Below are positions 27,087 through 48,332 of a stretch of DNA of 64,000 nucleotides, piece after piece. Source of the DNA: Candidatus Kaelpia aquatica (GTDB taxonomy: Bacteria > Omnitrophota > Gorgyraeia > Kaelpiales > Kaelpiaceae); assembly GCA_030765335.1 (NCBI GenBank), contig JAVCCU010000025.1:6784-70783 (forward strand), read 5' to 3'. Numbering within the stretch: the first letter of the stretch is position 1; the number at the start of each line of letters is the position of its first letter. The notes beneath the pieces are model-generated. The model was not told where the DNA came from. It ran no database searches and saw nothing but the letters and a program-made list of their open reading frames with translations. The translations under genes were made by a program, and so were the position numbers.

Positions 27087-27136
27087 ATTGTATGATATGT
27101 TTAAAATGAACAAATTAAAAAAATATAGCAACCGAC

Positions 27137-27165
27137 TTGACAGCAGATTATATTATGGTATAAAT
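27137..27165 (+). promoter_or_regulatory. sigma70-type promoter TTGACA-N16-TGGTATAAAT
   Basis: TTGACA at 27137-27142 and TGGTATAAAT at 27156-27165. Confidence 0.55.
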
Positions 27166-27325
27166 ATTACAGGAGGTAGAAGGGCTTGAGAAAAAGATTA
27201 TGAAGAGAACAAAACTTAACAACATTATTCTCTGTATTATCGGTGCTCAGGAGGGGCATTGTCAAGATAGATTAAGGAATTCAAATAAACGGGTGTTTAA
27301 TTTGGTAAAAAAGGAGGAAGTTAAA

Positions 27326-27805
27326 ATGAATAAAGCATTAGTAATTCTTGTGTTAGGCATGTTGTTTATAACTCAGCTTGCATCTGCAGCAATTAATCAA
27401 ACAGGTCAAATCGCAATAAGTTTAAGGTTGGGTCAGGTGATTAACGAACGAGCTGATCAGGAAATTGAAGGTGCTCGCGAAATAAATGGAATCGCTGCAG
27501 GTATTGACGCTGGTACCATAGCGGTAACCGATAGAACTGTAGCAGAAAACGAAGGAGCGGCTTTTCTTGATTTTGTAAATAAAGTAAATGGTTTAAGCGA
27601 TGAAAAAACTAATGATGCAGTTGAAATTAAGCAATGTGCAGCTATGGCATTGAATGGTTCTGAATTAAGTTTGCCAGCTGAAGCAGTCGATGTGTTGGCT
27701 GGTAAGTGGTCTGATAATCTTGATAGCATGCTTGAGGAATTACAGAAAGCAGATCAGGTGTTAGACGATGATACGATGACTGCAGTTATGAATATACAAG
27801 AATAA
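27326..27805 (+). CDS. small secreted acidic hypothetical protein
   Basis: Start placed at ATG 27326 (AAGGAGG 8 nt upstream). Signal peptide MNKALVILVLGMLFITQLASA. The ORF track's extension to 27200 has no RBS and is not signal-like. Confidence 0.5.
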   Translation: MNKALVILVLGMLFITQLASAAINQTGQIAISLRLGQVINERADQEIEGAREINGIAAGIDAGTIAVTDRTVAENEGAAFLDFVNKVNGLSDEKTNDAVEIKQCAAMALNGSELSLPAEAVDVLAGKWSDNLDSMLEELQKADQVLDDDTMTAVMNIQE

Positions 27806-27816
27806 ATATTACGGAT

Positions 27817-27846
27817 GCTGGAGGCCTAAATAGGCCTCCAGCTTAA
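27817..27846 (+). terminator. GC-rich hairpin (possible terminator/attenuator)
   Basis: GCTGGAGGCCT-AAAT-AGGCCTCCAGC perfect 11-bp stem. The downstream tail is not T-rich, so it may be only a partial terminator. Confidence 0.4.
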
Positions 27847-27860
27847 AAGGGGAGAGTATT

Positions 27861-28009
27861 ATGAATAGAAAAAAGAAGATGTTTAAAACAAGGCAGCAAG
27901 AGTCTTTTTTTTATTCAATTAATAAAATCTTAATAAAAGATTTCATTAGCATTGTTGTTGCCTGCTCAATGCTTTTTGCTAATACTATCTGTTTGGCTGG
28001 CGATGAAGC
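27861..28009 (+). repeat. direct repeat copy 1 (149 bp) encoding the shared N-terminal leader
   Basis: Near-identical to 28738-28886. The differences cluster in one ~20 nt patch. Confidence 0.8.
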
Positions 28010-28745
28010 TGAGACAGTACATGCTGATGGTGTATTCACAACTATGCCTATGGCCCCTGCGGCCAGCGATCTTATGGGTGTATCTTTGATTGACCAGACA
28101 GAAATTGTTGCAATAGAGCGGGTAGGAGTATTGCGCATAGAAGAGTTTAATGTAGGTTTTCAAGTAACATATATGCTTAACAATGGTGCCAAGATGCTAC
28201 AAAGTTTAATCGTTTATCTTCCTATTAAGCGTGATGAAAATGAAGCGATAAGTGTCCCCGATGTCTATATCGAAACTCCTGAAATATCTGAAGCTGGGTT
28301 TCGTGGTGAATCTTGGAATATAAATCCTGGAGATGATTCTATTGGTTATCTTGAGATAGTAATTGTTAATAATGGAATTAACCTTATTACAGAGTATGCT
28401 CCGATTACTGATACGGCGATGGGTATTGAATTTACATATGATGGAGCTACGCGTGGCGTTTACAACCATGACCTTGATGATATTGATATGCTTAATCAAT
28501 GTACATCGATTGTGAAAACATTAAATTTCTTTCTCAATCTCGAAGATTTTGATAGCAACAGTGCTAGCCATAGCGTTGAAAATCCTTCGATTGATAATCC
28601 TTCGGTTGATAATGAAAGTAACTCAATTTTAGATCATTTTCAAACCTTTGCGTTGCGTTTTTTTCCTGCACTTTTTCTTGGAGGCACTTTAGCTTATGAG
28701 ATATATCTCCAACAGCAGCGTTGGATTAGGAGGAGTAATGAATAG
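27861..28745 (+). CDS. hypothetical protein with conserved basic N-terminal leader (MNRKKKMFK...ICLAGDEA)
   Basis: 294 aa. Shares its first ~50 aa almost exactly with the next gene. The rest is unique, with a PSIDNPSVDN repeat near the C-terminus. Confidence 0.55.
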   Translation: MNRKKKMFKTRQQESFFYSINKILIKDFISIVVACSMLFANTICLAGDEAETVHADGVFTTMPMAPAASDLMGVSLIDQTEIVAIERVGVLRIEEFNVGFQVTYMLNNGAKMLQSLIVYLPIKRDENEAISVPDVYIETPEISEAGFRGESWNINPGDDSIGYLEIVIVNNGINLITEYAPITDTAMGIEFTYDGATRGVYNHDLDDIDMLNQCTSIVKTLNFFLNLEDFDSNSASHSVENPSIDNPSVDNESNSILDHFQTFALRFFPALFLGGTLAYEIYLQQQRWIRRSNE

Positions 28746-28886
28746 AAAAAAGAAGATGTTTAAAGCAAGGCAGCAAGCATATTTTTTGTATTTAATTAAT
28801 AAAATCTTAATAAAAGATTTCATTAGCATTGTTGTTGCCTGCTCAATGCTTTTTGCTAATACTATCTGTTTGGCTGGCGATGAAGC
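28738..28886 (+). repeat. direct repeat copy 2 (149 bp) encoding the shared N-terminal leader
   Basis: Near-identical to 27861-28009. Confidence 0.8.
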
Positions 28887-31221
28887 AGTTGCGGATGTTG
28901 GAAAAACGGTTTTGCCGGAATTACGCGGTACCCTAGAAGATATTGCGGAATGTTTTGGTCGAGCAATAACCACAGATGATGTTACTGTAATCGAAAGAGG
29001 TGGAGAACTAGGTAACTTGCCATTTTTAAGTGAATTAGATTTACCTAATTATCTTAGTGAAGGTGCTCTCGGTAATTTACCTATTGAGATAAGGGACTAT
29101 AGTCTCGGAGACCTTAGTTTAAGTTCTATAGCTGGCATTGAAAGCAATCATCAGAGTACATTAGCGTGTACGAGAAATGGTGAACCAGAGTGGGCAATTA
29201 GGCGTAGCGTTAAAGATGGAGAAGTAAGCTTTACTGTTATGTGGGAAGAAGAGGGTGAGTATACAGAGTTGGCAGTTGATGCAGACGGCACTATAAGAAG
29301 AGTAATGCATGTAAGAACTTCTGGAGATTATAGAGGAGTATATGTTTATGAAAGTGATGATCCTGAAGGTTATGGACAGATTTTAATATCTGATTGGGAT
29401 AATTCAATGGCTAACCCAGCTAACCATAATCTCCCTTATACAGAAGAGGTTCAGGATAGATTTGATAATTATTTGGATTATCTGCCTTCTGTTGAAGAAT
29501 TTTTCAGCGATACGGCGACTTACATAGCAGAGACACCAGAAGAAGATAGAGTTAATTCCGATTTAAATGTTAGGGCAATTCCATACATTGTTTGGAATGA
29601 AAATATGGTAGATGATACTCCTGCTGATGCATTTGTGCACTCAGGGGGCACAGTGGTGTTTGCTCAAGTCGACATTGATGTATCTAAAGCGGAAGCTTTT
29701 AAATCAATCATGGATGAATTTTACAGATCTCTTGAGATTCTTGCAGGAGAAGAAGGAGGAGCAGGAGGAAGCGCAGTCGACCCTACTGTAGATGCTCAGG
29801 TAGCTTCTGAGTGGATAGGAGAATTTGCACATGATGCATTAGGAGAGGCTTTTGAAATATATGGAGTTGCAGGTGCTATGATGGCAGCCGTTCTTGATAC
29901 CTGGGCAGTTGCTACGAGTAGCTTTAGATTTTGTTTTGATTTTACCAAAGCTTATGAAACGTATACACCTGTAGTAGTTGATCCTGTGACCCTAAACTAT
30001 TACTTTGATACACCAGAAATTGATGCAACTCAGCCGCTGGATTTCAGTGATCAAGATTTTGTTGCGGGTCTATTCGGAGGCCATCTAGAAGCTGGCAATA
30101 TTGATCAAAGTGAATATGATGCCATTTTAGCGCAATATGAGTATTTCCGTCTTCTATCTTTGGATTATAACGATTCAGCTTTTGGTGAAGCTTTTGGTAC
30201 TCCAGTAGCATTCGATCCAGTTAATTATGGTGAACAGGTTGAGGTATATGTTAGCGATTTTAGAGATAATGGTAATATAGGTGCGCTAGAAAATCTTGCA
30301 GAAAGAATGGGACTGTATAAGTATGCATTTCTTACTTGGCTTGAGAAACGATATCCCCAGTTCTTGGTTGATGACGGCACTGCTATAACTGCAGGTCAGA
30401 TTAGTTTTTCTCCAAAATGGGCTCAGTTTGATGTGGCCGATGCGCTTGGTCTAGTAGCTACTATCTATACTCTTAGAGTCGAGGCGCTTAGCATGCTAGG
30501 AGGTGTATTAAAAGGAGCAGGTTGGGTTGCTAATAAGGCATCTTGGGTAAAGGTGGCTCAAGCACTAAATACATATTCCGCTTCTCTTAATGGAGCAGCT
30601 CTTACATATGCTGGATTTAGTGAATACGCCGCTCTCCGGGGTATAAGCGAGCACAAGATTTTAACAGCATTAGGCTTTGCCCCAGGGACAGGAGCTGCTT
30701 ACGGGCTTATAAGCAGGGCTGTATATTTCTCATTAGTTGGGCCTGCAACACAAGCTCTCAATGGCGATCCTATGCCTGAAACATTTCAGAGTTATCTTTA
30801 TGGTATTGGCGATCAGTTTGCAACCGGTGTTATATATTCGGGTATGTTTGGCTATGTTATGCCTCTTATGCAAGGGGGAGCTGGAGGTTCTATATTGCTT
30901 GCAAACTTAAAAAACCAAGCGATGTTTTGGGTATCAGAGATATATTTAGAAGAATACTTGCTTCAAAAAGCAGCAGAAACCATACATGATAGATATGATC
31001 CTAGGGGTTGGGATACAGCTGTTTTGTGGGATAAAGAATTTTATGGCAATTTGGCTGAAATATTTAATCCTTTGGAGATAATGATGTTGATTGGGACAGA
31101 TATAAAATCAGGCACTCATGGTGGAAGAAATACTGTACTAGCTGTGGGAGGTCTGTATGCTTTAGGATTAATAGTTGAAGGTTTGGAGCGAGCAACAGGC
31201 GTAAAGCTTTTTGGAGGTTAA
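28738..31221 (+). CDS. large hypothetical protein with the same N-terminal leader; Gly/Ala-rich hydrophobic C-terminal region
   Basis: Start at ATG 28738 (AGGAGG 4 nt upstream), overlapping the upstream gene's stop. About 827 aa. The C-terminal ~250 aa are rich in G/A with GxxxG-like motifs. Confidence 0.55.
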   Translation: MNRKKKMFKARQQAYFLYLINKILIKDFISIVVACSMLFANTICLAGDEAVADVGKTVLPELRGTLEDIAECFGRAITTDDVTVIERGGELGNLPFLSELDLPNYLSEGALGNLPIEIRDYSLGDLSLSSIAGIESNHQSTLACTRNGEPEWAIRRSVKDGEVSFTVMWEEEGEYTELAVDADGTIRRVMHVRTSGDYRGVYVYESDDPEGYGQILISDWDNSMANPANHNLPYTEEVQDRFDNYLDYLPSVEEFFSDTATYIAETPEEDRVNSDLNVRAIPYIVWNENMVDDTPADAFVHSGGTVVFAQVDIDVSKAEAFKSIMDEFYRSLEILAGEEGGAGGSAVDPTVDAQVASEWIGEFAHDALGEAFEIYGVAGAMMAAVLDTWAVATSSFRFCFDFTKAYETYTPVVVDPVTLNYYFDTPEIDATQPLDFSDQDFVAGLFGGHLEAGNIDQSEYDAILAQYEYFRLLSLDYNDSAFGEAFGTPVAFDPVNYGEQVEVYVSDFRDNGNIGALENLAERMGLYKYAFLTWLEKRYPQFLVDDGTAITAGQISFSPKWAQFDVADALGLVATIYTLRVEALSMLGGVLKGAGWVANKASWVKVAQALNTYSASLNGAALTYAGFSEYAALRGISEHKILTALGFAPGTGAAYGLISRAVYFSLVGPATQALNGDPMPETFQSYLYGIGDQFATGVIYSGMFGYVMPLMQGGAGGSILLANLKNQAMFWVSEIYLEEYLLQKAAETIHDRYDPRGWDTAVLWDKEFYGNLAEIFNPLEIMMLIGTDIKSGTHGGRNTVLAVGGLYALGLIVEGLERATGVKLFGG

Positions 31222-31225
31222 TAGA

Positions 31226-33154
31226 ATGAAGATTAATATGAGATATAATACAATTTTAATAATCACTATAGGGATGTTTTATACTATGGTTGCCTTAGAG
31301 TGTTCCGGGGCGGAGAATAATTTTTTAGATACATCTTCACTTTTCCGCTCTTTTGGCTCTGTTGTTCAAGCCGAGATTATGCTTCCTTTTAGTTCAGACG
31401 GTTCTGTTGTTGCAGATAATACTGAAAACGATGTTCCAGCAGAAGATTTGCTTTTTGCTTCAAATATAATCGAAATGTTTATAGAGGGTTCATCATTAGC
31501 GGATCTTGGCCTGGATGCATCCCAAGTCGAGCTCCTACAGTTATATTTTCCTGCATCGTTTGCTCTTATGCCATTTGCGCAAGAAAGGCCATTGAGTTTT
31601 TTGAACCCCGTCGTTTTATATGATGGCTCAAGACGCATTATTATAACTGAATCTATAGAAAGAGAGCCGATGCGTATTGATGATGCATGGGAAATGGAAT
31701 CCGTTAACGCTATCTTTGTTAATGTCAGGGATGTAGATGTTGATAGCGGGGCAATCATATACAGTACGTATGCATTTAAAGCCGAAGATTTTGACTTTTA
31801 TTATGGCAACAGCGTAGATGCGATTTTATCTTCTTTGGAGGGGAGAGTACCATATGCAATGCAATCTTACATATATAACCAGGATGATGGTTTATTTGAT
31901 GTAGAGGCTGCTTATTTTTCAGAAGCAGGAATCGACATTATTCAACAGGGAAGAGTATCACTTCATGAAGATGGTTTTGTTTGGTCTGCTGCTGAAGGAT
32001 CTTTTAAATTTTATTTTGATGAATCAAACAGTACGCTTAATATAGAAAATTATTTGCTTGATGAAATGATTAGTTCTACAGCTATTCATTGTGACGAAGA
32101 TTCTGGAAGTATAATAATAAAAGAAGGTGATTATGAAATCATCATATCTGATGTTGAGTTTTCACAATCTTTATACGATGGATCTATTGTAGCATATGGA
32201 GATGATGATGGATCAATACAAGATGGTGTATTTACTTATTATGAGATTAAGCATTGGACAACTATCATGAAGAATGATGAGTTGGTTGAATCTTGGTATG
32301 ACATATCTCATACTGCAAACGATTCTTCTTATAGAATTAAGATTTATTCTCAGAGCGCTGATAGTTCCTCCCCAGAATTTTATGCTCTTCAATATCAGGA
32401 AATAGGAGACGATGCTGCTTCTATTCGTAAATATGCTATTGAGCAAGACGAAGAAGAAGGCTTGTTGTATCGTAAGGTTTTTCATGTTTGGGATAGTTCC
32501 TATGCTCCAGGCAGTAGTTCTAGAATGTATTATATTGAAGATACGCCTGAAGATTGGCAAAATGCAAGCTGGTTTTTGCAAAGCGTTATCGATGAGCATT
32601 GTCAGCTTATATGTCAATCCGATACTGTTGTTTCTGCGGGAAAGGATGGTGATATTGTTATAACAAATAATGCATTTTACAACAGCGTCACTATAACAAG
32701 TGATTATGACGAGAGTATTCCTGGAGGGTTTCTTCAGCTTATAGAGAGTTACAGAGAATATCTATCCTCTAACCATCTTTTGAGTCGACCTGAGGTTGAA
32801 GAGGTTATAAATATAACCACTACCAAGGTGTTGTATCAAGATATTCGTTTGCCATATACGAGTCAGTTTTTAGAAATGATAGATAAAAATACAGGCTCAA
32901 ATCATCTTAGTAGTTTAGAAAATAAATCCGAGATTAAGATAAATATTGTCAATGAGGTTGCACGAGCATATCTAGAAAGAGGTATAAGTTTCTTTGGTTC
33001 TGCTTGGTCTTTACCTTCAGGGTTTACTCAGTTTTCTTTCGAATTTAGAAGCCTTATTCATAATACAGTTGTTCCTGAGTTGCAGGGCATGGTCCCTTAT
33101 GAATGGGATTATGACGAGGGGATACTAATTTTGTATCCTGATAGTGATAGTTAA
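31226..33154 (+). CDS. secreted highly acidic hypothetical protein
   Basis: Start at ATG 31226 (GGAGG upstream). Signal peptide MKINMRYNTILIITIGMFYTMVALECSGA. About 642 aa, D/E/S-rich, no recognisable domain. Confidence 0.5.
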   Translation: MKINMRYNTILIITIGMFYTMVALECSGAENNFLDTSSLFRSFGSVVQAEIMLPFSSDGSVVADNTENDVPAEDLLFASNIIEMFIEGSSLADLGLDASQVELLQLYFPASFALMPFAQERPLSFLNPVVLYDGSRRIIITESIEREPMRIDDAWEMESVNAIFVNVRDVDVDSGAIIYSTYAFKAEDFDFYYGNSVDAILSSLEGRVPYAMQSYIYNQDDGLFDVEAAYFSEAGIDIIQQGRVSLHEDGFVWSAAEGSFKFYFDESNSTLNIENYLLDEMISSTAIHCDEDSGSIIIKEGDYEIIISDVEFSQSLYDGSIVAYGDDDGSIQDGVFTYYEIKHWTTIMKNDELVESWYDISHTANDSSYRIKIYSQSADSSSPEFYALQYQEIGDDAASIRKYAIEQDEEEGLLYRKVFHVWDSSYAPGSSSRMYYIEDTPEDWQNASWFLQSVIDEHCQLICQSDTVVSAGKDGDIVITNNAFYNSVTITSDYDESIPGGFLQLIESYREYLSSNHLLSRPEVEEVINITTTKVLYQDIRLPYTSQFLEMIDKNTGSNHLSSLENKSEIKINIVNEVARAYLERGISFFGSAWSLPSGFTQFSFEFRSLIHNTVVPELQGMVPYEWDYDEGILILYPDSDS

Positions 33155-33320
33155 GTTAATGAGTAAAAAGGTTTTATTTGTGTATAGCCGTGCTCAGAAT
33201 TTTAGAAGAATCATTAGTCTCTTAGTGTACTTAGTGGTACAATAATTTCAAATTTAAAAGAAAAATTGAATCTGTATTGTTTATTGAATTTTGATATTTT
33301 TTTAGAACAATGATATTGTT

Positions 33321-34709
33321 ATGAAAATAAATGCATTATTTTTTGTTGCTATAGTTTGTTTTTTTATAAATTTAAAATTTGCTCATAGCTCCCAAAATAC
33401 TCAAGAATATAAAGTGCTTTTGGAAGAGTATGGTTTGAATTCATACCTCACGACAGATAATATAGATAGGTTGCAAGATTTTTCCAAATATGCAAAGTCT
33501 AAAGGAAAATTGCTAGACCTTTATCTGTTAAATTATTCTGAATTCCTAAAATTGTGTAAGAGCAATTTCTTTTTTACCATAGATGAAGAAGAGCCTAGTC
33601 AAGTATGCTTTTATGATAAAGAGATAGATGATATTGATAAACTCTACAATGCTTGTGGTGGATATATTGTTTCTCTCCCATTGGTAAATATAGTAGCACG
33701 GCATGTTTACCAAGATAGCAAAGGTAGTCTATCCCAAAATAACATTTTTGTAATATATCTTTTGCACGAAGGTGTCAATTTTTCTTTATTGCAACATTTA
33801 TTGGATAATATTATTGAAAAAGCAGGAGGGCCTTCTGCAGTTGTTTATATAGATGAGCTTGGGTTAATACCGGAAGACTCTGTCAATAGGTATAGCCAGG
33901 CTTACAAGATAAGCGAAAAAGAATCATTCGAAAAAATAAAAAATTCTCTTAAGAACGATATAAAATCAATAAGTATGGGCCATACTATTTATGATTCAAA
34001 CAAGCTTTATGCTCAGATATATAGCTATTTCGCAAAACATAAAATCGACTCTAATATGGAAGATCTTTCTTATGATAATTGGAAAAATATAGTTGCATTT
34101 GATAAGTTGAATTTATGGAGAAAAAGTGCGCGTTTGTTTTTAATGGGTGCGGTGAGAGCATGTATAGAATCTTCTCAAGAGTTTGTGTTTGGATTCATGT
34201 TGTACAATAATATAATGCGTGATGCTAATTTTTCAAATCAACTAAAAGCATTATTGTCTGATAAAAGTGGCACTACATTAATTACTATCCGTGGTCTTGG
34301 TCATTTTGGATTTGAAAAAAAATTGATAGAGGATGCAAATGTAAGTGTTTGTATTTTAGGCGACGAAGGAGACTCTTTCTTTACGCTAACAGCGCTCCGT
34401 GAAAGGTATATGATTTATCAAGTTAATGAAGTGATTTTAAGTAATGAAGAGGAAGATAGATTGCTATTAAATAGCGTACTTAGTTTTCTTATGTTTAATT
34501 ATTTGATAAAATATGGGATAGAAGACAATTACTATGATGCAATGAAAAGTACGATAGCATTATTAACGCCTCTATCTTTAGCACAGCTATATGCACTTCA
34601 AAGCAAACTATTTTATGAGTTGCAGGCAGGAAATTTCTCTAAAAATAATATCTATGAATTTATTTACAATTGGTGTAAAAATCAAACATTTATAAAAGAA
34701 GAGAACTAA
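33321..34709 (+). CDS. secreted hypothetical protein (very AT-rich gene)
   Basis: 462 aa. Signal peptide MKINALFFVAIVCFFINLKFAHS. Composition markedly more AT-rich than its neighbours. Confidence 0.5.
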   Translation: MKINALFFVAIVCFFINLKFAHSSQNTQEYKVLLEEYGLNSYLTTDNIDRLQDFSKYAKSKGKLLDLYLLNYSEFLKLCKSNFFFTIDEEEPSQVCFYDKEIDDIDKLYNACGGYIVSLPLVNIVARHVYQDSKGSLSQNNIFVIYLLHEGVNFSLLQHLLDNIIEKAGGPSAVVYIDELGLIPEDSVNRYSQAYKISEKESFEKIKNSLKNDIKSISMGHTIYDSNKLYAQIYSYFAKHKIDSNMEDLSYDNWKNIVAFDKLNLWRKSARLFLMGAVRACIESSQEFVFGFMLYNNIMRDANFSNQLKALLSDKSGTTLITIRGLGHFGFEKKLIEDANVSVCILGDEGDSFFTLTALRERYMIYQVNEVILSNEEEDRLLLNSVLSFLMFNYLIKYGIEDNYYDAMKSTIALLTPLSLAQLYALQSKLFYELQAGNFSKNNIYEFIYNWCKNQTFIKEEN

Positions 34710-44412: not shown

Positions 44413-44685
44413 ATGAAAAAGCGTATTTTATTTATTATGTTACTGCTTTTTTTATCTAGTATCTCATTGGATGAATTTCAGAATATTCCGCTGAATTGTT
44501 TCAGGAGATTGAGGGCAGATGGTAATATTAATTTTTATCAGATAGTCCAAAATATCTTAATGGATTTAGAAGGAAGAATTACAAATGTGGACAAGGTTGT
44601 TGTATTTGATGAGCTTCGTTACGGAGTCCATGGTGGTATTTCCTGGAAGACATTGCAAATATGTTTACTGATGAAAATCAAGTGA
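44413..44685 (+). CDS. hypothetical signal-peptide ORF, possibly the 5' part of a frameshifted gene continuing at 44661-45323
   Basis: 90 aa. Signal peptide MKKRILFIMLLLFLSSISL. The downstream ORF in another frame opens right after a stop at 44610-12. Confidence 0.35.
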   Translation: MKKRILFIMLLLFLSSISLDEFQNIPLNCFRRLRADGNINFYQIVQNILMDLEGRITNVDKVVVFDELRYGVHGGISWKTLQICLLMKIK

Positions 44686-45323
44686 TACGTGTAACCAATG
44701 TACCTGTAGATGAGAGTGGAATGATTGCATATCAAACGAATAGTAGTTTGGGGGTGATGTTTCCTGGTCAATTCCGAGTCTGTATAGGTGAAGAATATGC
44801 AAATAAAAGAGCAGATGTATTGTTTTCCAAAGACCAGGGTAATAGCATGGTAGTGTTGCGAGTTGAAATAGATGGACAAATTATTATTGATGAGACGATG
44901 GTTTCATATCTTGTGAATGAAAATGGAATCGAACTTTATGCCCCATCGTGCAGCAATAATGTATTTGGGGTAGAGCCTTTTCAGGATTATTTTTACTTTA
45001 GGTCTAGGAGTTCTGAAGGCGATAATGCCTTGTATATTGTAAATCAGCGTCTTTCTACCAAAGGGGGATTCATTCTTTTCAGTAGAACTTATGAGGAAAT
45101 ACTTTCAGATCAACTTGCTAATGCCGTTGTGGTTGTTAAGGTTGAGCGAGAATCGCAATCCGAGCATGATTTTATAGTTTCGGTGATCGTTGTTGAAGAT
45201 AAGGAAGGTAGGCCTATTTTTGATAAATTCGGCAAATCGATTGTATATCATTTCCGGGGTGTTTTAGAAAGAGATCGGTTTCTGAGCTACTCTCTGGAAT
45301 TAATCAAGGGGTCTGAGTTATAA
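44661..45323 (+). CDS. hypothetical protein (possible 3' part of a frameshifted secreted protein gene)
   Basis: 220 aa with no signal peptide of its own. Overlaps the preceding ORF by 25 nt in a different frame. Confidence 0.4.
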   Translation: MFTDENQVIRVTNVPVDESGMIAYQTNSSLGVMFPGQFRVCIGEEYANKRADVLFSKDQGNSMVVLRVEIDGQIIIDETMVSYLVNENGIELYAPSCSNNVFGVEPFQDYFYFRSRSSEGDNALYIVNQRLSTKGGFILFSRTYEEILSDQLANAVVVVKVERESQSEHDFIVSVIVVEDKEGRPIFDKFGKSIVYHFRGVLERDRFLSYSLELIKGSEL

Positions 45324-45395
45324 TTTTACCAATTCTCATTGTGATATTTGCCTATACTTGCAATTTATTTATATTCCTTTTACAATTGATGGTAT

Positions 45396-45487
45396 GGAGA
45401 GGTGTGAGAGCGGCCGAATCAAAACGACTGGAAATCGTTTGACTTGAGAAATTAGGTCCCTGGGTTCAAATCCCAGCCTCTCCGCCA
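45396..45487 (+). tRNA. tRNA-Ser (anticodon GGA), CCA-encoded
   Basis: Acceptor GGAGAGG...CCTCTCC-G-CCA. Anticodon stem-loop AACGA-CTGGAAA-TCGTT gives anticodon GGA. Long variable arm. T-arm CTGGGTTCAAATCCCAG. 92 nt. Confidence 0.85.
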
Positions 45488-45521
45488 TTAATCCTTCCTC
45501 AAATATAATTTTCTTATCAAT

Positions 45522-45550
45522 TTGACTAGATGTATTTGTATGGTATAAAT
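45522..45550 (+). promoter_or_regulatory. sigma70-type promoter TTGACT-N16-TGGTATAAAT
   Basis: TTGACT at 45522-45527 and TGGTATAAAT at 45541-45550, upstream of the repeat-protein gene. Confidence 0.55.
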
Positions 45551-45579
45551 ATATTATCAATTGATAAAGAGGGGGTTAA

Positions 45580-46231
45580 TATGAAATGTAATAAGCTTAG
45601 TGTTGTTTTGGTGTGTTTTATTCTCATAGGTTCTGTTGTTTTTATTCCTGGTCATGCTTATGCCAGAAGAATAAAAGACGATAGTTCAGAACTATCAACA
45701 GAAGATTTAATTCGTATTTCTAATGCTGTTGATTATTTTATTGAACAAGACAGCATGAGAGTCGAAATGTCAACAGAAAATAGAGAAAAATATATAGATT
45801 ATCTACAGAAATGTAATCTTCAAACCTCAGAAAGGAATATACAGTTGTTTGCAAGATTGAACAAGTCATCTGTTGATGCAGGTTTTAATCTTGAACATAA
45901 TGCACCTTCTTATCCTGGAAATACATTTGATGTTCTTAAATCTCTGACAGAAACAGGCATCGTAACCGAAGATAATCTACCTCAATTAATAAATTTAGGC
46001 ATAACATCTGCTGAAGCAGGTTTTCATCCTTGGCATACGTTCAGAGCTCTTGAATTTCTGGCAAAAACAGGTATCTTAATCGAAACTAATCTACCTTAGG
46101 TAATAGATTTAGGCATAGCATCTGCTAAACTACGTCTTAAGCCTTGGGATATATTCAACGTTCTTAAATCTTTGGCAGAATTAGGTGTCTTAACAGAAGA
46201 TAATCTATCTTTGATAATTCTCAAGGATTAA
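45580..46231 (+). pseudogene. secreted tandem-repeat protein interrupted by an in-frame TAG (CAG->TAG within a repeat unit)
   Basis: Signal peptide MKCNKLSVVLVCFILIGSVVFIPGHAYA. ~35-aa repeats (…NLPQLINLGITSAEAGF…). After TAG at 46097-99 the same frame continues the repeat (VIDLGIASAKLRLKPWDIFNVLKSLAELGVLTEDNLSLIILKD) to TAA at 46229-31. TAG is a genuine stop elsewhere in the window. Confidence 0.55.
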
Positions 46232-46437
46232 TAAATAATATAGCTATACCAAATGAGTATGATCAAGTTCTTATATCTACAACTGAAGTAGCTCAATCCA
46301 ATAGGCCTCAGATACGAACAGAGATAAAACGATTAATTGCTAATAAAATTATTATTACTCAGAATGTTCAAGAAGAATTTCCTACAAACAGTATTTACGA
46401 TATAACTGAAGTAGCTCTCTACTGGGAAAAATAACCT

Positions 46438-46608
46438 TGTGCCCAAACTGTGCCCATCTTACATCAAAACATCCGTATGCAAACGTAGGCAAACGTAACC
46501 ATTCGCACTCGATAAATCCTTTACAAAGCAGTGGTTTGCAGCATAGTTTGTTGATATATAAGGAGTTAAGTGATTTAGCTTGATAGAATCCCAGCCTCTC
46601 CGCCATTG
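46438..46608 (+). repeat. islet-end repeat R1 (~170 bp) ending in an exact copy of the tRNA-Ser 3' end
   Basis: About 85% identical over ~125 bp to 48694-48820. Terminates in AATCCCAGCCTCTCCGCCATT. Confidence 0.6.
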
Positions 46609-47002
46609 TTGACGCTCAGTCGAACCCTGTTCCTCAAGAAGGAGTGGAGTTCGCTGTTTTTGGGGCTCTTTCAGTGGTAAGCTATGAACCTTGATTATCT
46701 TGATAAGAGCTTTTAGAAGGCTTATTTGAGCCTCTAGTGGGGGCGGCGAGGTGCGTTCTTTCAGCGACCTTAAAATAAAAAATCGATGTCGTGGTCGTAG
46801 GGAAAAATCGAGAAATTGCTAAAATCAGCGTAATATGTTGTATTTATTGGAGTTATAGCTATTTTAAGCGTGCTCTATAGATTCAAAATAGCCCGAAAAC
46901 CGGACATTTGCCATGTCGTATTATCGTGTTTTGGTGAGTTACAGCAAGTGTGAAGAAAGTATATTCTGGGGTAATTTTCTACACACCCAATGTAATCAAA
47001 GT

Positions 47003-47131
47003 GATAATAACAAAACCTCTTATTATCATTTAACGCCATAAGTGACAATAAAAGATTTTCTTATTACCATTTGGGGCGGCTTGCCATGTTTGAAGATAGA
47101 AATAATAATAAAAATTTTCTTATTGACATTT
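47003..47131 (+). promoter_or_regulatory. three imperfect direct repeats (core TCTTATTRNCATTT) upstream of the Fic gene, the last overlapping its -35
   Basis: 47003-47031, 47044-47072 and 47101-47131. The third contains TTGACA (47123-28) of a TTGACA-N17-TAATAT promoter (-10 at 47146-51). Confidence 0.45.
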
Positions 47132-47213
47132 AAGTGTGTAAATGATAATATATGTCCATATTCAGGTTGAATATTAATAGCGTAGGTTTGTTAAGAATAA
47201 TTAGAGGTGACAT

Positions 47214-48332
47214 ATGTTTAAAGCTGGAAATTACAAGCAACAATATGAATACAAAAGTTTTTTGCCATCGTTAGTTAACGTTGATTATCAGTGGGAGGAT
47301 AGGCAAATTGTTGTTTTATTAGAAAACGCTATGCGTTATCTGGGGGAACTCAATGCCTATTCAACGCTAGTTCCGGACGTGGATTTTTTTATTCAAATGC
47401 ATGTGGCAAAAGAAGCTACGACGTCCAGTCGTATTGAAGGGACAAGAACCAATATTGACGAAGTTGTTTTGCCTGAGAATGAAATCAGTCCTGAAAAACG
47501 TGATGACTGGGCAGAGGTTCAAAATTATATCAAGGCAATGAATTTTGCTATTGATGAGCTTGATAAATTGCCTTTATCGATGAGGCTGCTCAAAGAGACG
47601 CATAAGAGATTGCTCTCAGGTGTAAGAGGTCATCATAAACTTCCGGGAGAAGTAAGAAGAAGCCAAAACTGGATTGGCGGATCAAGCTTAAAAGATGCTT
47701 TTTTCGTTCCGCCACACCATGAAGATTTACCGGATTTGTTGACCGACCTTGAAAAATTTTGGCACAGCAAGGAAATCAATCTTCCTCGTTTAATTCGGGT
47801 TGCCATCAGCCATTATCAATTTGAAACGATTCACCCTTTTCTGGACGGTAATGGCAGGGCAGGACGACTTCTTATAACTTTGCAATTAGTTGATATGGAC
47901 ATATTGAATAAGCCTTGTCTCTATCTTTCAGATTTTTTTGAAAGAAATAAGGGGTCATACTATGATTCATTGAGTGTAGCAAGAGCTTCAAATGATCTTG
48001 ACCAGTGGATAAAGTTTTTTCTTTCAGGAGTCATTGATACAGCTAAGAATGGGAAGGAAACTTTAGAAACCATTGTTAAGCTCAGAAAACAATATGATGA
48101 CAAAATTATAACTATGGGAAGAAAAGCCAAGCCAGCTCAAAAACTGCTTTTGTTCCTTTTTTCGCATCCAATTGTTTCTATCGGGCAGGTCTCTGATCAT
48201 TTAGGAGTAGGATTTTCCGCGGGCGGAAGATTAATAGCGGATTTTCAAAGAGTCGGATTTTTAAAAGAAGTGACAGGTTTTTCTAGAAATAGGTTGTTTG
48301 CGCTGTCGGAGTATTTATCGTTGTTTAAATAG
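47214..48332 (+). CDS. Fic family protein (AMPylase-type) with intramolecular inhibitory motif
   Basis: 372 aa. Fic motif [12 protein letters not shown] and N-terminal inhibitory [ST]xxxE[GN] motif SSRIEG (class II arrangement). RBS AGAGGTG upstream. Confidence 0.85.

What the first reader, a model, noticed from the sequence alone, without database searches (positions are those of the whole stretch)
27861..28886. Two adjacent genes share a near-identical 149 bp 5' segment encoding a ~50 aa basic leader (MNRKKKMFK-RQQ...INKILIKDFISIVVACSMLFANTICLAGDEA)
Nucleotides 27861-28009 and 28738-28886 are almost identical. Their differences sit in one ~20 nt patch. The proteins diverge completely after this segment. 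The repeat begins exactly at each ATG, and the upstream regions are unrelated, so the conserved unit is the leader itself rather than a promoter.

A shared N-terminal trafficking or anchoring module with variable C-terminal cargo is the hallmark of polymorphic effector families and of dedicated secretion leaders. The leader has a long basic N-region and the hydrophobic core sits ~30 aa in. That makes it an extended signal peptide or signal anchor, not a standard Sec signal. It bears a tenuous resemblance (FFYSINKIL) to YSIRK-type extended signals.

The direct repeats could also drive recombination and cassette switching.
Basis: seen in the sequence. Interest (0 to 1): 0.8.

Follow-up and report, generated by a model that had tools for sequence, protein, structure and literature searches.

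The report
Shared signal peptide, kept identical by gene conversion
Two neighbouring genes of unknown function in an uncultured Antarctic-lake bacterium start with the same long export signal, which is kept nearly identical by copying between the genes; it is not the tag of a larger effector family, so this is a tidy but fairly ordinary case.

Summary
Window 27861-28009 and 28738-28886 are a 149-nt direct repeat (143/149 identical). Each copy starts exactly at the ATG of gene A (294 aa) or gene B (827 aa). Five independent assemblies reproduce both copies.

The window comes from a 'Candidatus Kaelpia aquatica' MAG (Omnitrophota, Ace Lake). The repeat encodes a long Sec-type signal peptide: a 27-aa basic n-region, a 16-20-aa hydrophobic core and a CLA|G site. 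It matches no YSIRK, ESPR, Tat or lipoprotein model.

An exhaustive HMM search of 1.84 billion representative proteins finds the leader only on A, B and their orthologues.

The new result is concerted evolution. In a second Kaelpia population the A' and B' leaders are 149/150 identical to each other but only 122-127/150 identical to those in this window. Synonymous codon differences are 0-1 within a genome and 9 between genomes. Gene conversion therefore homogenises a signal-peptide module on two otherwise unrelated proteins.

In the second population the assembly graphs also contain closed cycles, with and without A'. This suggests tandem duplication or deletion through the repeat, but reads were not available to verify it.

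The parts
27861..28009 (+). Leader repeat, copy 1: codons 1-50 of gene A (MNRKKKMFKTRQQESFFYSINKILIKDFISIVVACSMLFANTICLAGDEA)
28738..28886 (+). Leader repeat, copy 2: codons 1-50 of gene B. Its first 8 nt (ATGAATAG) also encode the last codons and the stop of gene A.
27861..28745 (+). Gene A (P9X27_04395, 294 aa). It has the leader, an acidic mature part with no known family, a moderately hydrophobic C-terminal helix and a basic tail. Its orthologue A' is only 43% identical.
28738..31221 (+). Gene B (P9X27_04400, 827 aa). It has the leader and a large acidic protein with no known family. Its conserved C-terminal region (about aa 520-810) has distant homologues in Ca. Saelkia tenebricola and in one other metagenome.
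27323..27805 (+). Gene X, the first gene of the operon. It is a small helical acidic protein with an ordinary Sec signal peptide (MNKALVILVLGMLFITQLASA|A). The start is taken at the internal ATG, which has an AGGAGG Shine-Dalgarno sequence.
31226..33154 (+). Gene C, 642 aa, with an ordinary N-terminal signal peptide and no known family. It is syntenic in the second Kaelpia population.
33321..34709 (+). Gene D, 462 aa, with an ordinary signal peptide (…NLKFAHS|SQ) and no known family. Membership of the operon is inferred only from strand and proximity.
27136..27165 (+). Promoter-like CTTGACA-N17-TATAAAT upstream of X. It is conserved in the second population and is the probable operon promoter. 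This is my own reading; it was not listed by the consensus scan.
27817..27842 (+). Conserved GC-rich hairpin between X and A (GCTGGAGGCC-TAAATA-GGCCTCCAGC). A compensatory change keeps it paired in the second population.

Best explanation
The 149-nt repeat is the 5' coding module for a long Sec-type signal peptide. It runs from the start codon to just past the signal-peptidase site. The peptide has a 27-aa strongly basic n-region, a 16-20-aa hydrophobic core and a probable cleavage site after C-L-A.

The module probably belonged first to gene B, a large envelope or secreted protein restricted to a few Omnitrophota. It was duplicated onto gene A, a small, fast-evolving, lineage-specific gene that sits immediately upstream and is translationally coupled to B.

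Since then, intragenomic gene conversion has repeatedly overwritten one copy with the other. The tract is bounded upstream by the ATG. Beyond that point lie A's RBS on one side and A's C-terminal codons on the other. It is bounded downstream by the point where the mature proteins lose all homology.

Functionally, the leader sends A and B across the inner membrane with the three other signal-peptide proteins of the operon (X, C, D). The long direct repeat is also a substrate for unequal recombination.

Shown: the repeat, its restriction to two genes, the concerted evolution and the signal-peptide-like physical features. Inferred: Sec dependence, the cleavage site, the direction of the original transfer (B to A) and recombination in vivo.
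For: Repeat and boundaries.

Signal-peptide features: the n-region has 8 K/R against 1-2 D/E. The h-region FISIVVACSMLFANTICLAG has a mean Kyte-Doolittle value of 2.06 and is the only strongly hydrophobic segment in A and B. The mature parts are acidic (D+E 15%, K+R 5%). X, C and D all have N-terminal signal peptides.

Concerted evolution: A and B leaders are 143/150 identical in this genome and 149/150 in the second Kaelpia population, but only 122-127/150 in all four cross-genome pairs. Codons differing synonymously number 1 and 0 within genomes and 9 between genomes. In the second population the repeat again starts exactly at the ATG in three different upstream contexts, and it is longer there (169 nt, one mismatch).

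Unrelated cargo: BLASTP and hhalign are both negative.

Restriction to two genes: a search of 1.84e9 representatives gives leader hits only to A (102.9 bits), A' (100 bits) and B.

Leader native to B: the Saelkia B homologue has a weakly similar N-terminus ending in AWA|NGD (BLASTP E = 0.005; 3 of 2000 shuffles reach the observed score). The only other distant B locus (L013) has a signal-peptide gene followed directly by B, with no A.

No RNA-level explanation: fold z-scores are -1.9, -0.55, -1.5 and +0.86.
Against: No trained signal-peptide predictor was available and no experiment was possible, so cleavage and Sec dependence are unproven. A 20-aa hydrophobic stretch would also suit an uncleaved signal anchor.

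The leader is 46-47 aa long, about twice the usual length, and the other three operon proteins do not need one like it. A special role for the long basic n-region therefore cannot be excluded.

Only two genomes carry both genes, so the phylogenetic evidence for conversion rests on one species pair.

The similarity to the Saelkia leader is weak, and that contig is truncated inside the leader. The L013 flanking genes are not detectably homologous to X and C, so 'A is a later insertion' is an inference.

The profile used had 842 positions. Leader-only hits therefore paid several extra bits, and very divergent leaders could have been missed.
Confidence: 0.7

Rival explanations
1. The leader is a dedicated targeting tag: a recognition signal for a specialised, still unknown Omnitrophota export or sorting route, or for co-assembly of A and B. 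Selection rather than neutral conversion keeps the two copies identical.
For: The leader is unusually long and basic, while X, C and D in the same operon use ordinary short signals. Several positions are invariant across both Kaelpia populations (MNRKKKMFK, RQQ, INK, LIKD, ISIVV, SMLF, CLAG). A and B are translationally coupled by the ATGAATAG overlap.
Against: The leader occurs on only two genes in 1.84e9 representatives. No transporter or secretion gene lies in the operon or in the parts of the window that were annotated. No known leader family matches. Between species the leader changes at 13 of 50 codons non-synonymously, about as fast as mature B. Within-genome identity extends to synonymous sites, which selection on the protein does not explain.
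Confidence: 0.12
2. The leader is an uncleaved N-terminal signal anchor (type II topology). A and B would be tethered to the inner membrane by the same helix, and A would also be held by its C-terminal helix.
For: The hydrophobic stretch is 20 aa with a mean Kyte-Doolittle value above 2 and is preceded by a strongly positive segment, which fits the positive-inside rule. AlphaFold draws one continuous helix through residues 2-49, although at very low confidence.
Against: A small-x-small motif sits at the end of the hydrophobic core in all versions: CLA|G in Kaelpia, followed by GNA|D in the second population, and AWA|N in Saelkia. The models have pLDDT below 50 and carry no weight.
Confidence: 0.15
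3. The repeats make a programmed cassette or copy-number switch. Recombination between leader copies deletes or amplifies A, or the whole A-B-C unit, to vary surface composition.
For: In the second population, contigs show X'->R->B' without A' (L009). They also show a closed 5,380-nt cycle R-B',C',R-A' (L010, whose closing junction is bridged by L001 and L002 at 100% identity). Finally, they show a closed 4,488-nt cycle lacking exactly the 892-nt A' unit, in two independent assemblies (L008; L014 with a 141-nt terminal overlap). The C'->R spacer combines sequence homologous to this window's C->D spacer (23/28) with the RBS stretch found upstream of copy 1, as a tandem-duplication junction would.
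Against: A 169-nt repeat is longer than the assembly k-mer and probably longer than the reads, so which gene follows which copy cannot be trusted from contigs alone. No read or coverage data were available. In K. aquatica every assembly shows the simple order X, A, B, C, D. No recombinase gene is nearby. Nothing indicates regulation.
Confidence: 0.15
4. The repeat is an assembly or binning artefact: a chimeric join that places one gene's 5' end on another.
For: Several contigs break at the repeat.
Against: Both copies, with the same six diagnostic differences, occur in the 74-kb NCBI contig and in five further contigs from ENA and JGI assemblies of different samples. The orthologues in a second population show the same architecture.
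Confidence: 0.01

Closest known systems
Mycoplasma variable surface lipoprotein families (vlp, vsp, vsa) and Borrelia paralogous lipoprotein families
   Same: A highly conserved 5' segment encoding the signal peptide is joined to divergent mature regions in neighbouring genes. Intragenomic recombination keeps the 5' ends alike.
   Different: Those are multigene families with lipoprotein (SPase II) signals, phase-variable promoters or invertases, and related or repetitive mature parts. Here there are only two genes, no lipobox, one operon, and cargo with no detectable homology.
Gene conversion among Helicobacter pylori outer-membrane protein paralogues (babA/babB and relatives) (from my own knowledge)
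   Same: Concerted evolution of gene ends: paralogues are more alike within a strain than orthologues are between strains, driven by RecA-type conversion.
   Different: The bab genes are full-length paralogues at distant loci. Here the converted tract is only the signal-peptide module of two adjacent, otherwise unrelated genes.
Extended signal peptides: ESPR of type V autotransporters (PF13018) and YSIRK-G/S of Gram-positive surface proteins (PF04650 / TIGR01168)
   Same: A total length of about 45-55 aa, with extra N-terminal sequence ahead of an otherwise Sec-like hydrophobic core.
   Different: No HMM match at E <= 10. The motif positions are not conserved. There is no autotransporter beta-domain or LPXTG cargo. 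The basic cluster comes first here, not between two hydrophobic parts.
Polymorphic toxin and effector families with a shared N-terminal trafficking domain (CDI/Rhs/T6SS/T7SS-type)
   Same: An identical N-terminus with different C-termini in adjacent genes.
   Different: There are only two members. No toxin or immunity domains are present, no cognate secretion system is nearby, and no further members were found in 1.84e9 representative proteins.

Membership tests
Sec-type (signal peptidase I) signal peptide | Positively charged n-region followed by a hydrophobic h-region | tested here: met
   The n-region has 8 K/R against 1-2 D/E. The h-region has a mean Kyte-Doolittle value of 2.06 over 20 aa and is the only segment of A or B with a 19-aa Kyte-Doolittle mean of 1.6 or more.
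Sec-type (signal peptidase I) signal peptide | Small, uncharged residues at -3 and -1 of a c-region directly after the h-region | tested here: inconclusive
   By reading: C-L-A|G in Kaelpia, G-N-A|D also possible in the second population, A-W-A|N in the Saelkia homologue. No trained predictor was available.
Sec-type (signal peptidase I) signal peptide | Typical length of about 18-30 aa | tested here: not met
   There are 46-47 aa up to the putative site and the n-region is 27 aa. This makes it an extended variant.
Sec-type (signal peptidase I) signal peptide | Actual export and cleavage | not testable with these tools
   Needs reporter fusions or proteomics.
YSIRK-G/S signal peptide | Match to the family model and the motif [YF]SIRKxxxGxxS | tested here: not met
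   No Pfam or NCBIfam hit at E <= 10 for any of the three leader versions. The sequence reads YSINKILIKDFIS: there is no G at +9 and the S is out of register. In copy B and in the second population even the YS is lost (LYLINK, LYPINK).
ESPR (autotransporter extended signal peptide region) | Match to PF13018 and type V cargo | tested here: not met
   No hit at E <= 10. No autotransporter or TPS domains in A or B.
Tat signal peptide | Twin-arginine motif (S/T-R-R-x-F-L-K) before the h-region | tested here: not met
   No RR is present in the leader (sequence). No TAT_signal model hit.
Lipoprotein (SPase II) signal peptide | Lipobox L-[AS]-[GA]-C with Cys at +1 | tested here: not met
   L-A-G is followed by D (or N), not C.
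Polymorphic effector or toxin family with a shared trafficking N-terminus | Many members sharing the N-terminus with diverse C-terminal cargo | tested here: not met
   hmmsearch of 1.84e9 representatives finds the leader only on A, A' and B/B'. There is no further copy in the window, in GTDB representative genomes or in IMG/VR.
Polymorphic effector or toxin family with a shared trafficking N-terminus | Toxin and immunity modules, and a linked secretion system | tested here: not met
   No Pfam or NCBIfam domain in X, A, B, C or D. The neighbours that were annotated are housekeeping or envelope-biogenesis genes. The rest of the genome was not available.
Concerted evolution by gene conversion | Paralogous segments are more similar within a genome than orthologous segments are between genomes, including at synonymous sites | tested here: met
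   143/150 and 149/150 within genomes against 122-127/150 between. Synonymous codon differences are 1 and 0 against 9.
Concerted evolution by gene conversion | A sharply bounded tract with unrelated flanks | tested here: met
   Identity starts at the ATG in all contexts and ends 4-10 codons after the putative cleavage site.

The most novel reading that the evidence does not exclude
The long basic leader is a specific address tag for a so far unrecognised Omnitrophota envelope-sorting or A-B co-assembly route. The leader repeats also act as recombination sites. Through them, natural populations amplify the A-B-C unit or drop A (the closed 5,380-nt and 4,488-nt cycles in the second Kaelpia population), giving copy-number or composition variation of a surface system in a possibly host-dependent nanobacterium.
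Probability: 0.1. Interest if true: 0.6.

Novelty: new member of a known kind. Interest (0 to 1): 0.3.

Why it matters
The finding gives a clean, well-bounded example of gene conversion acting on a signal-peptide module alone, joined to two unrelated proteins, in a phylum with no cultured members and almost no characterised envelope proteins.

It has two practical consequences. The repeat breaks short-read assemblies exactly at these genes, which helps explain fragmented or missing copies in MAGs. It also shows that a shared N-terminus is not enough on its own to infer an effector family.

It flags a five-gene, Omnitrophota-restricted operon of exported acidic proteins (X, A, B, C, D) as a candidate cell-surface system. 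It also flags a possible tandem amplification of that operon in a sister population. Both deserve read-level follow-up. Neither overturns current understanding.

Tried and rejected
1. A leader-only search of the word-indexed protein database found nothing. This is a false negative of the index, because P0001 in that database carries the leader. I do not use it as evidence.

2. Leader and B-profile scans of GTDB representative genomes and of IMG/VR found nothing. Even the source locus was not recovered, so these collections evidently lack the locus or have it masked. The negatives are weak.

4. AlphaFold2 models of A (single sequence, pLDDT 35.3) and of B (two-sequence alignment, pLDDT 28.8) are unusable. 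No fold search was run on them.

5. A as a diverged partial duplicate of B: rejected at the sensitivity available (BLASTP E = 0.05, hhalign probability 0.14%). A short IERxGxL similarity at the same offset after the leader is not significant.

6. An RNA structure as the reason for the nucleotide identity: no consistent stability, and no structure in the second population's copy. Rfam found nothing in the window.

7. An N-terminal 'extension' of X as a second extended signal peptide: rejected in favour of a 5'UTR, because the strong Shine-Dalgarno sequence precedes the internal ATG and the upstream ATG has none at a proper distance.

8. Synteny of L013 with X and C: the flanking genes there are not detectably homologous, so only the architecture is comparable.

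9. A literature search for direct bacterial precedents returned mostly eukaryotic cases. The bacterial comparisons are therefore from my own knowledge.

Full report
**1. The observation**

Window 27861-28009 and 28738-28886 form a 149-nt direct repeat at 96% identity. blastn of copy 1 against the whole window gives E = 1.6e-68 for copy 2, and nothing else exceeds 15 nt. tblastn with the 50-aa peptide likewise finds only these two places.

The six mismatches are at repeat positions 28, 41, 42, 44, 51 and 56, and positions 57-149 are identical.

Each copy starts at the ATG of an ORF: gene A (27861-28745, 294 aa) and gene B (28738-31221, 827 aa). Each ATG is preceded by a good Shine-Dalgarno sequence. 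The 100 nt upstream of the two copies are unrelated.

Gene A's stop codon lies inside copy 2. The sequence ATGAATAG serves both as the start of B and as the final ...N-E-stop of A. The two genes are therefore translationally coupled.

The repeat is real. Exact-sequence look-up of protein A found five further contigs from four ENA and JGI assemblies. All carry both copies with the same six differences. Three of them stop inside or at the end of copy 2, which is the expected effect of a 149-nt repeat on k = 141 assemblies.

**2. Source and context**

Proteins A and B are P9X27_04395 and P9X27_04400 of a MAG named Candidatus Kaelpia aquatica, on a 74,431-nt contig. Kaelpia is an Omnitrophota genus described from Ace Lake, Antarctica, with two species, K. 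aquatica and K. imicola (PMC8542988).

The two genes sit in a same-strand cluster:
- X: 27323-27805
- A: 27861-28745
- B: 28738-31221
- C: 31226-33154
- D: 33321-34709

None of the five has a Pfam or NCBIfam hit.

Upstream are QueE, fumarase, RNase PH and RdgB. Downstream are a PilZ protein, a sigma-54 activator and RpoN. The other genes I annotated in the window are housekeeping or envelope-biogenesis genes: PEPCK, GreA, an amidase, sugar-nucleotide enzymes, FeoB, CarB, MurJ and UvrC. No secretion system is among them.

X, C and D each begin with an ordinary short signal peptide. All five mature proteins are acidic (D+E 13-19%).

A conserved TTGACA-N17-TATAAAT element lies upstream of X at 27136-27165.

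**3. What the leader looks like**

The leader has three parts:
- Residues 1-27 carry 8 K/R and 1-2 D/E.
- Residues 28-47 (FISIVVACSMLFANTICLAG) have a mean Kyte-Doolittle value of 2.06. This is the only strongly hydrophobic segment in either protein.
- The core ends in C-L-A|G-D, a small-x-small arrangement.

This is the architecture of a Sec signal peptide with an exceptionally long n-region. An uncleaved signal anchor cannot be excluded.

The three known versions of the leader match no Pfam or NCBIfam model at E <= 10. It is therefore not a member of the YSIRK, ESPR or Tat families. It has no twin arginine and no lipobox cysteine. The 'FFYSINKIL' resemblance to YSIRK is not maintained even in copy B (FLYLINKIL) or in the sister population (FLYPINKNL).

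**4. Is it the tag of a family?**

The word-indexed protein search with the leader alone returned nothing. That is a false negative, because the same database holds B with its leader.

The decisive test was an exhaustive hmmsearch of 1.84 billion cluster representatives, using a profile containing the leader. Leader matches were found only on:
- A (P0003, 102.9 bits)
- P0005 (100 bits), a 293-aa protein that is the A orthologue of a second population
- B itself

Two more hits, P0004 and P0006, match only B's C-terminal region.

No further copy was found in the window, in GTDB representative genomes or in IMG/VR. The last two negatives are weak, because even the source locus was not recovered there.

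**5. Concerted evolution**

B has a 70%-identical orthologue, P0002, in other Ace Lake assemblies. It may be K. imicola, but I did not verify this.

There the leader again heads both A' and B'. Over the first 150 nt the identities are as follows:

| Comparison | Identity | Codons differing synonymously |
|---|---|---|
| A vs B (this genome) | 143/150 | 1 |
| A' vs B' (second population) | 149/150 | 0 |
| All four cross-genome pairs | 122-127/150 | 9 |

The cross-genome values are the same whichever genes are compared.

In the second population the repeat is longer (169 nt, one mismatch). It again starts exactly at the ATG, in three different upstream contexts.

Between the two populations the leader is 74-78% identical at protein level, mature B is 70% identical and mature A only 43%. 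The peptide sequence itself is therefore not under unusually strong constraint.

Mature A and mature B share no detectable homology (BLASTP best E = 0.05; hhalign probability 0.14%).

Together these results mean the duplication predates the split of the two populations. Since then the copies have been homogenised within each genome by gene conversion. Selection on the protein would not erase synonymous differences.

RNA folding gives no consistent structure that could explain the nucleotide identity instead (z = -1.9, -0.55, -1.5, +0.86).

**6. Whose leader was it?**

P0004 is a partial protein of Candidatus Saelkia tenebricola. It shares B's C-terminal region (32% identity over 307 aa). Its N-terminus...INKNFYKVICKKFINIIIVYIFLFNQFAWA|NGD, is weakly but non-randomly similar to the Kaelpia leader (BLASTP E = 0.005 for the single comparison; 3 of 2000 shuffles reach the score).

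P0006 is more distant. It lies on a contig where duplicated sigma-70-like promoters are followed by a 218-aa signal-peptide protein, then the B homologue with a short ordinary signal, then a large signal-peptide protein. No A gene sits in between. Those flanking genes are not detectably homologous to X and C, so only the layout is comparable.

I infer, with moderate confidence, that the leader is B's own. A would then be a fast-evolving Kaelpia-lineage gene that acquired a copy of it.

**7. Recombination through the repeat**

In K. aquatica every assembly shows the order X, A, B, C, D.

In the second population the contigs disagree:
- L009 reads X'->R->B'->C', with no A'.
- L001 and L002 read A'->R->B'->C'.
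- L010 reads R-B'->C'->R-A'->R and closes on itself with a 1-nt gap, giving a cycle of 5,380 nt. L001 and L002 bridge the closing junction at 100% identity.
- L008 closes with a 5-nt gap on a cycle of 4,488 nt.
- L014 is a MEGAHIT contig with a 141-nt terminal overlap that closes on the same 4,488-nt cycle.

The 4,488-nt cycle is the 5,380-nt cycle minus exactly the 892-nt A' unit.

The C'->R junction occurs in three independent assemblies. Its 47-nt spacer starts with a stretch homologous to this window's C->D spacer (23/28 nt). It ends with the roughly 14-nt RBS stretch that precedes copy 1. A tandem duplication of the whole [R-A, R-B, C] unit would create exactly that junction.

A third leader context therefore exists in that population. 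Which gene follows each copy cannot be trusted for a repeat longer than the k-mer, and no read data were available. I treat tandem amplification, and loss of A' by repeat-by-repeat recombination, as plausible but unverified.

**8. Structure and function of the cargo**

AlphaFold2 gave unusable models for A (pLDDT 35.3) and B (pLDDT 28.8), so no fold search was run. The function of the operon remains unknown beyond 'exported acidic proteins restricted to a few Omnitrophota'.

**9. Verdict**

The YSIRK link and the polymorphic-effector or dedicated-secretion reading are not supported.

What is there is a signal-peptide-coding module shared by two adjacent, otherwise unrelated genes and kept nearly identical by gene conversion. 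This is a known kind of phenomenon, comparable (from my own knowledge) to conserved signal-peptide 5' ends in Mycoplasma and Borrelia surface-protein families and to bab gene conversion in Helicobacter. It is seen here in a new phylum and in an unusually minimal form.

Interest is modest. The possible tandem amplification of the operon in the sister population is the most worthwhile lead.

Noticed in passing
L010 (JGI Ga0075120_10010363), L008 (Ga0207996_1008034), L014 (ENA ERZ27315522 k141_294611), L009, L001, L002: In the second Kaelpia population the operon assembles as closed cycles of 5,380 nt (R-B', C', R-A') and 4,488 nt (the same without the 892-nt A' unit). One contig joins X' directly to R-B'. 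The C'->R spacer looks like a tandem-duplication junction. This could be real amplification or deletion through the leader repeat, or mis-threading by the assembler.
   Followed up: partly
window 27817-27842: A GC-rich hairpin lies between X and A (GCTGGAGGCC-TAAATA-GGCCTCCAGC) with no T-run after it. It is conserved in the second population with a compensatory change (CTGGAGTC...GACTCCAG). It may be an mRNA-stabilising or attenuating element that sets the X:A/B expression ratio.
   Followed up: no
window 27136-27322: A conserved promoter-like CTTGACA-N17-TATAAAT lies at 27136-27165, followed by a leader of about 150 nt that is conserved between the two populations. Gene callers translate this as a 42-aa N-terminal extension of X (the 201-aa ORF). 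The strong Shine-Dalgarno sequence is at the internal ATG (27323), so the extension is more likely a conserved 5'UTR. Rfam has no match. The distant locus L013 also has two tandem copies of a TTGACA...TATACT promoter upstream of its first gene.
   Followed up: partly
window 28738-28745: The last codons and the stop of gene A (AAT GAA TAG) lie inside the first 8 nt of leader copy 2 (ATGAATAG). The leader sequence therefore fixes A's C-terminal residues, and A and B are translationally coupled. The same overlap is kept in the second population.
   Followed up: yes
L004, L006, L007 (same species); L011 (Ca. Saelkia tenebricola JAVCDA010000079.1); L014, L015: Contigs repeatedly begin or end at or inside the leader. 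L011 is a 3,066-nt contig that consists only of the B homologue and starts inside its leader. This hints that the leader may be repeated in Saelkia too, and that the locus is systematically fragmented in short-read MAGs.
   Followed up: no
The word-indexed protein search returned 'no candidate' for the 50-aa leader, although the database holds P0001 with a 90%-identical leader. Short or low-complexity queries can give false negatives with this tool.
   Followed up: yes
window 44661-48332: Two ORFs without any Pfam family (44661-45323 and 45530-46099) flank a tRNA-Ser(GGA) at 45396-45487 and are followed by a Fic/DOC protein (47214-48332). This may be a small integrated island next to the tRNA.
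   Followed up: no
window 27323-34709: All five mature proteins of the operon are markedly acidic (D+E 13-19%; K+R about 5% in X, A, B and C). This may reflect the saline lake habitat or an extracellular location.
   Followed up: no
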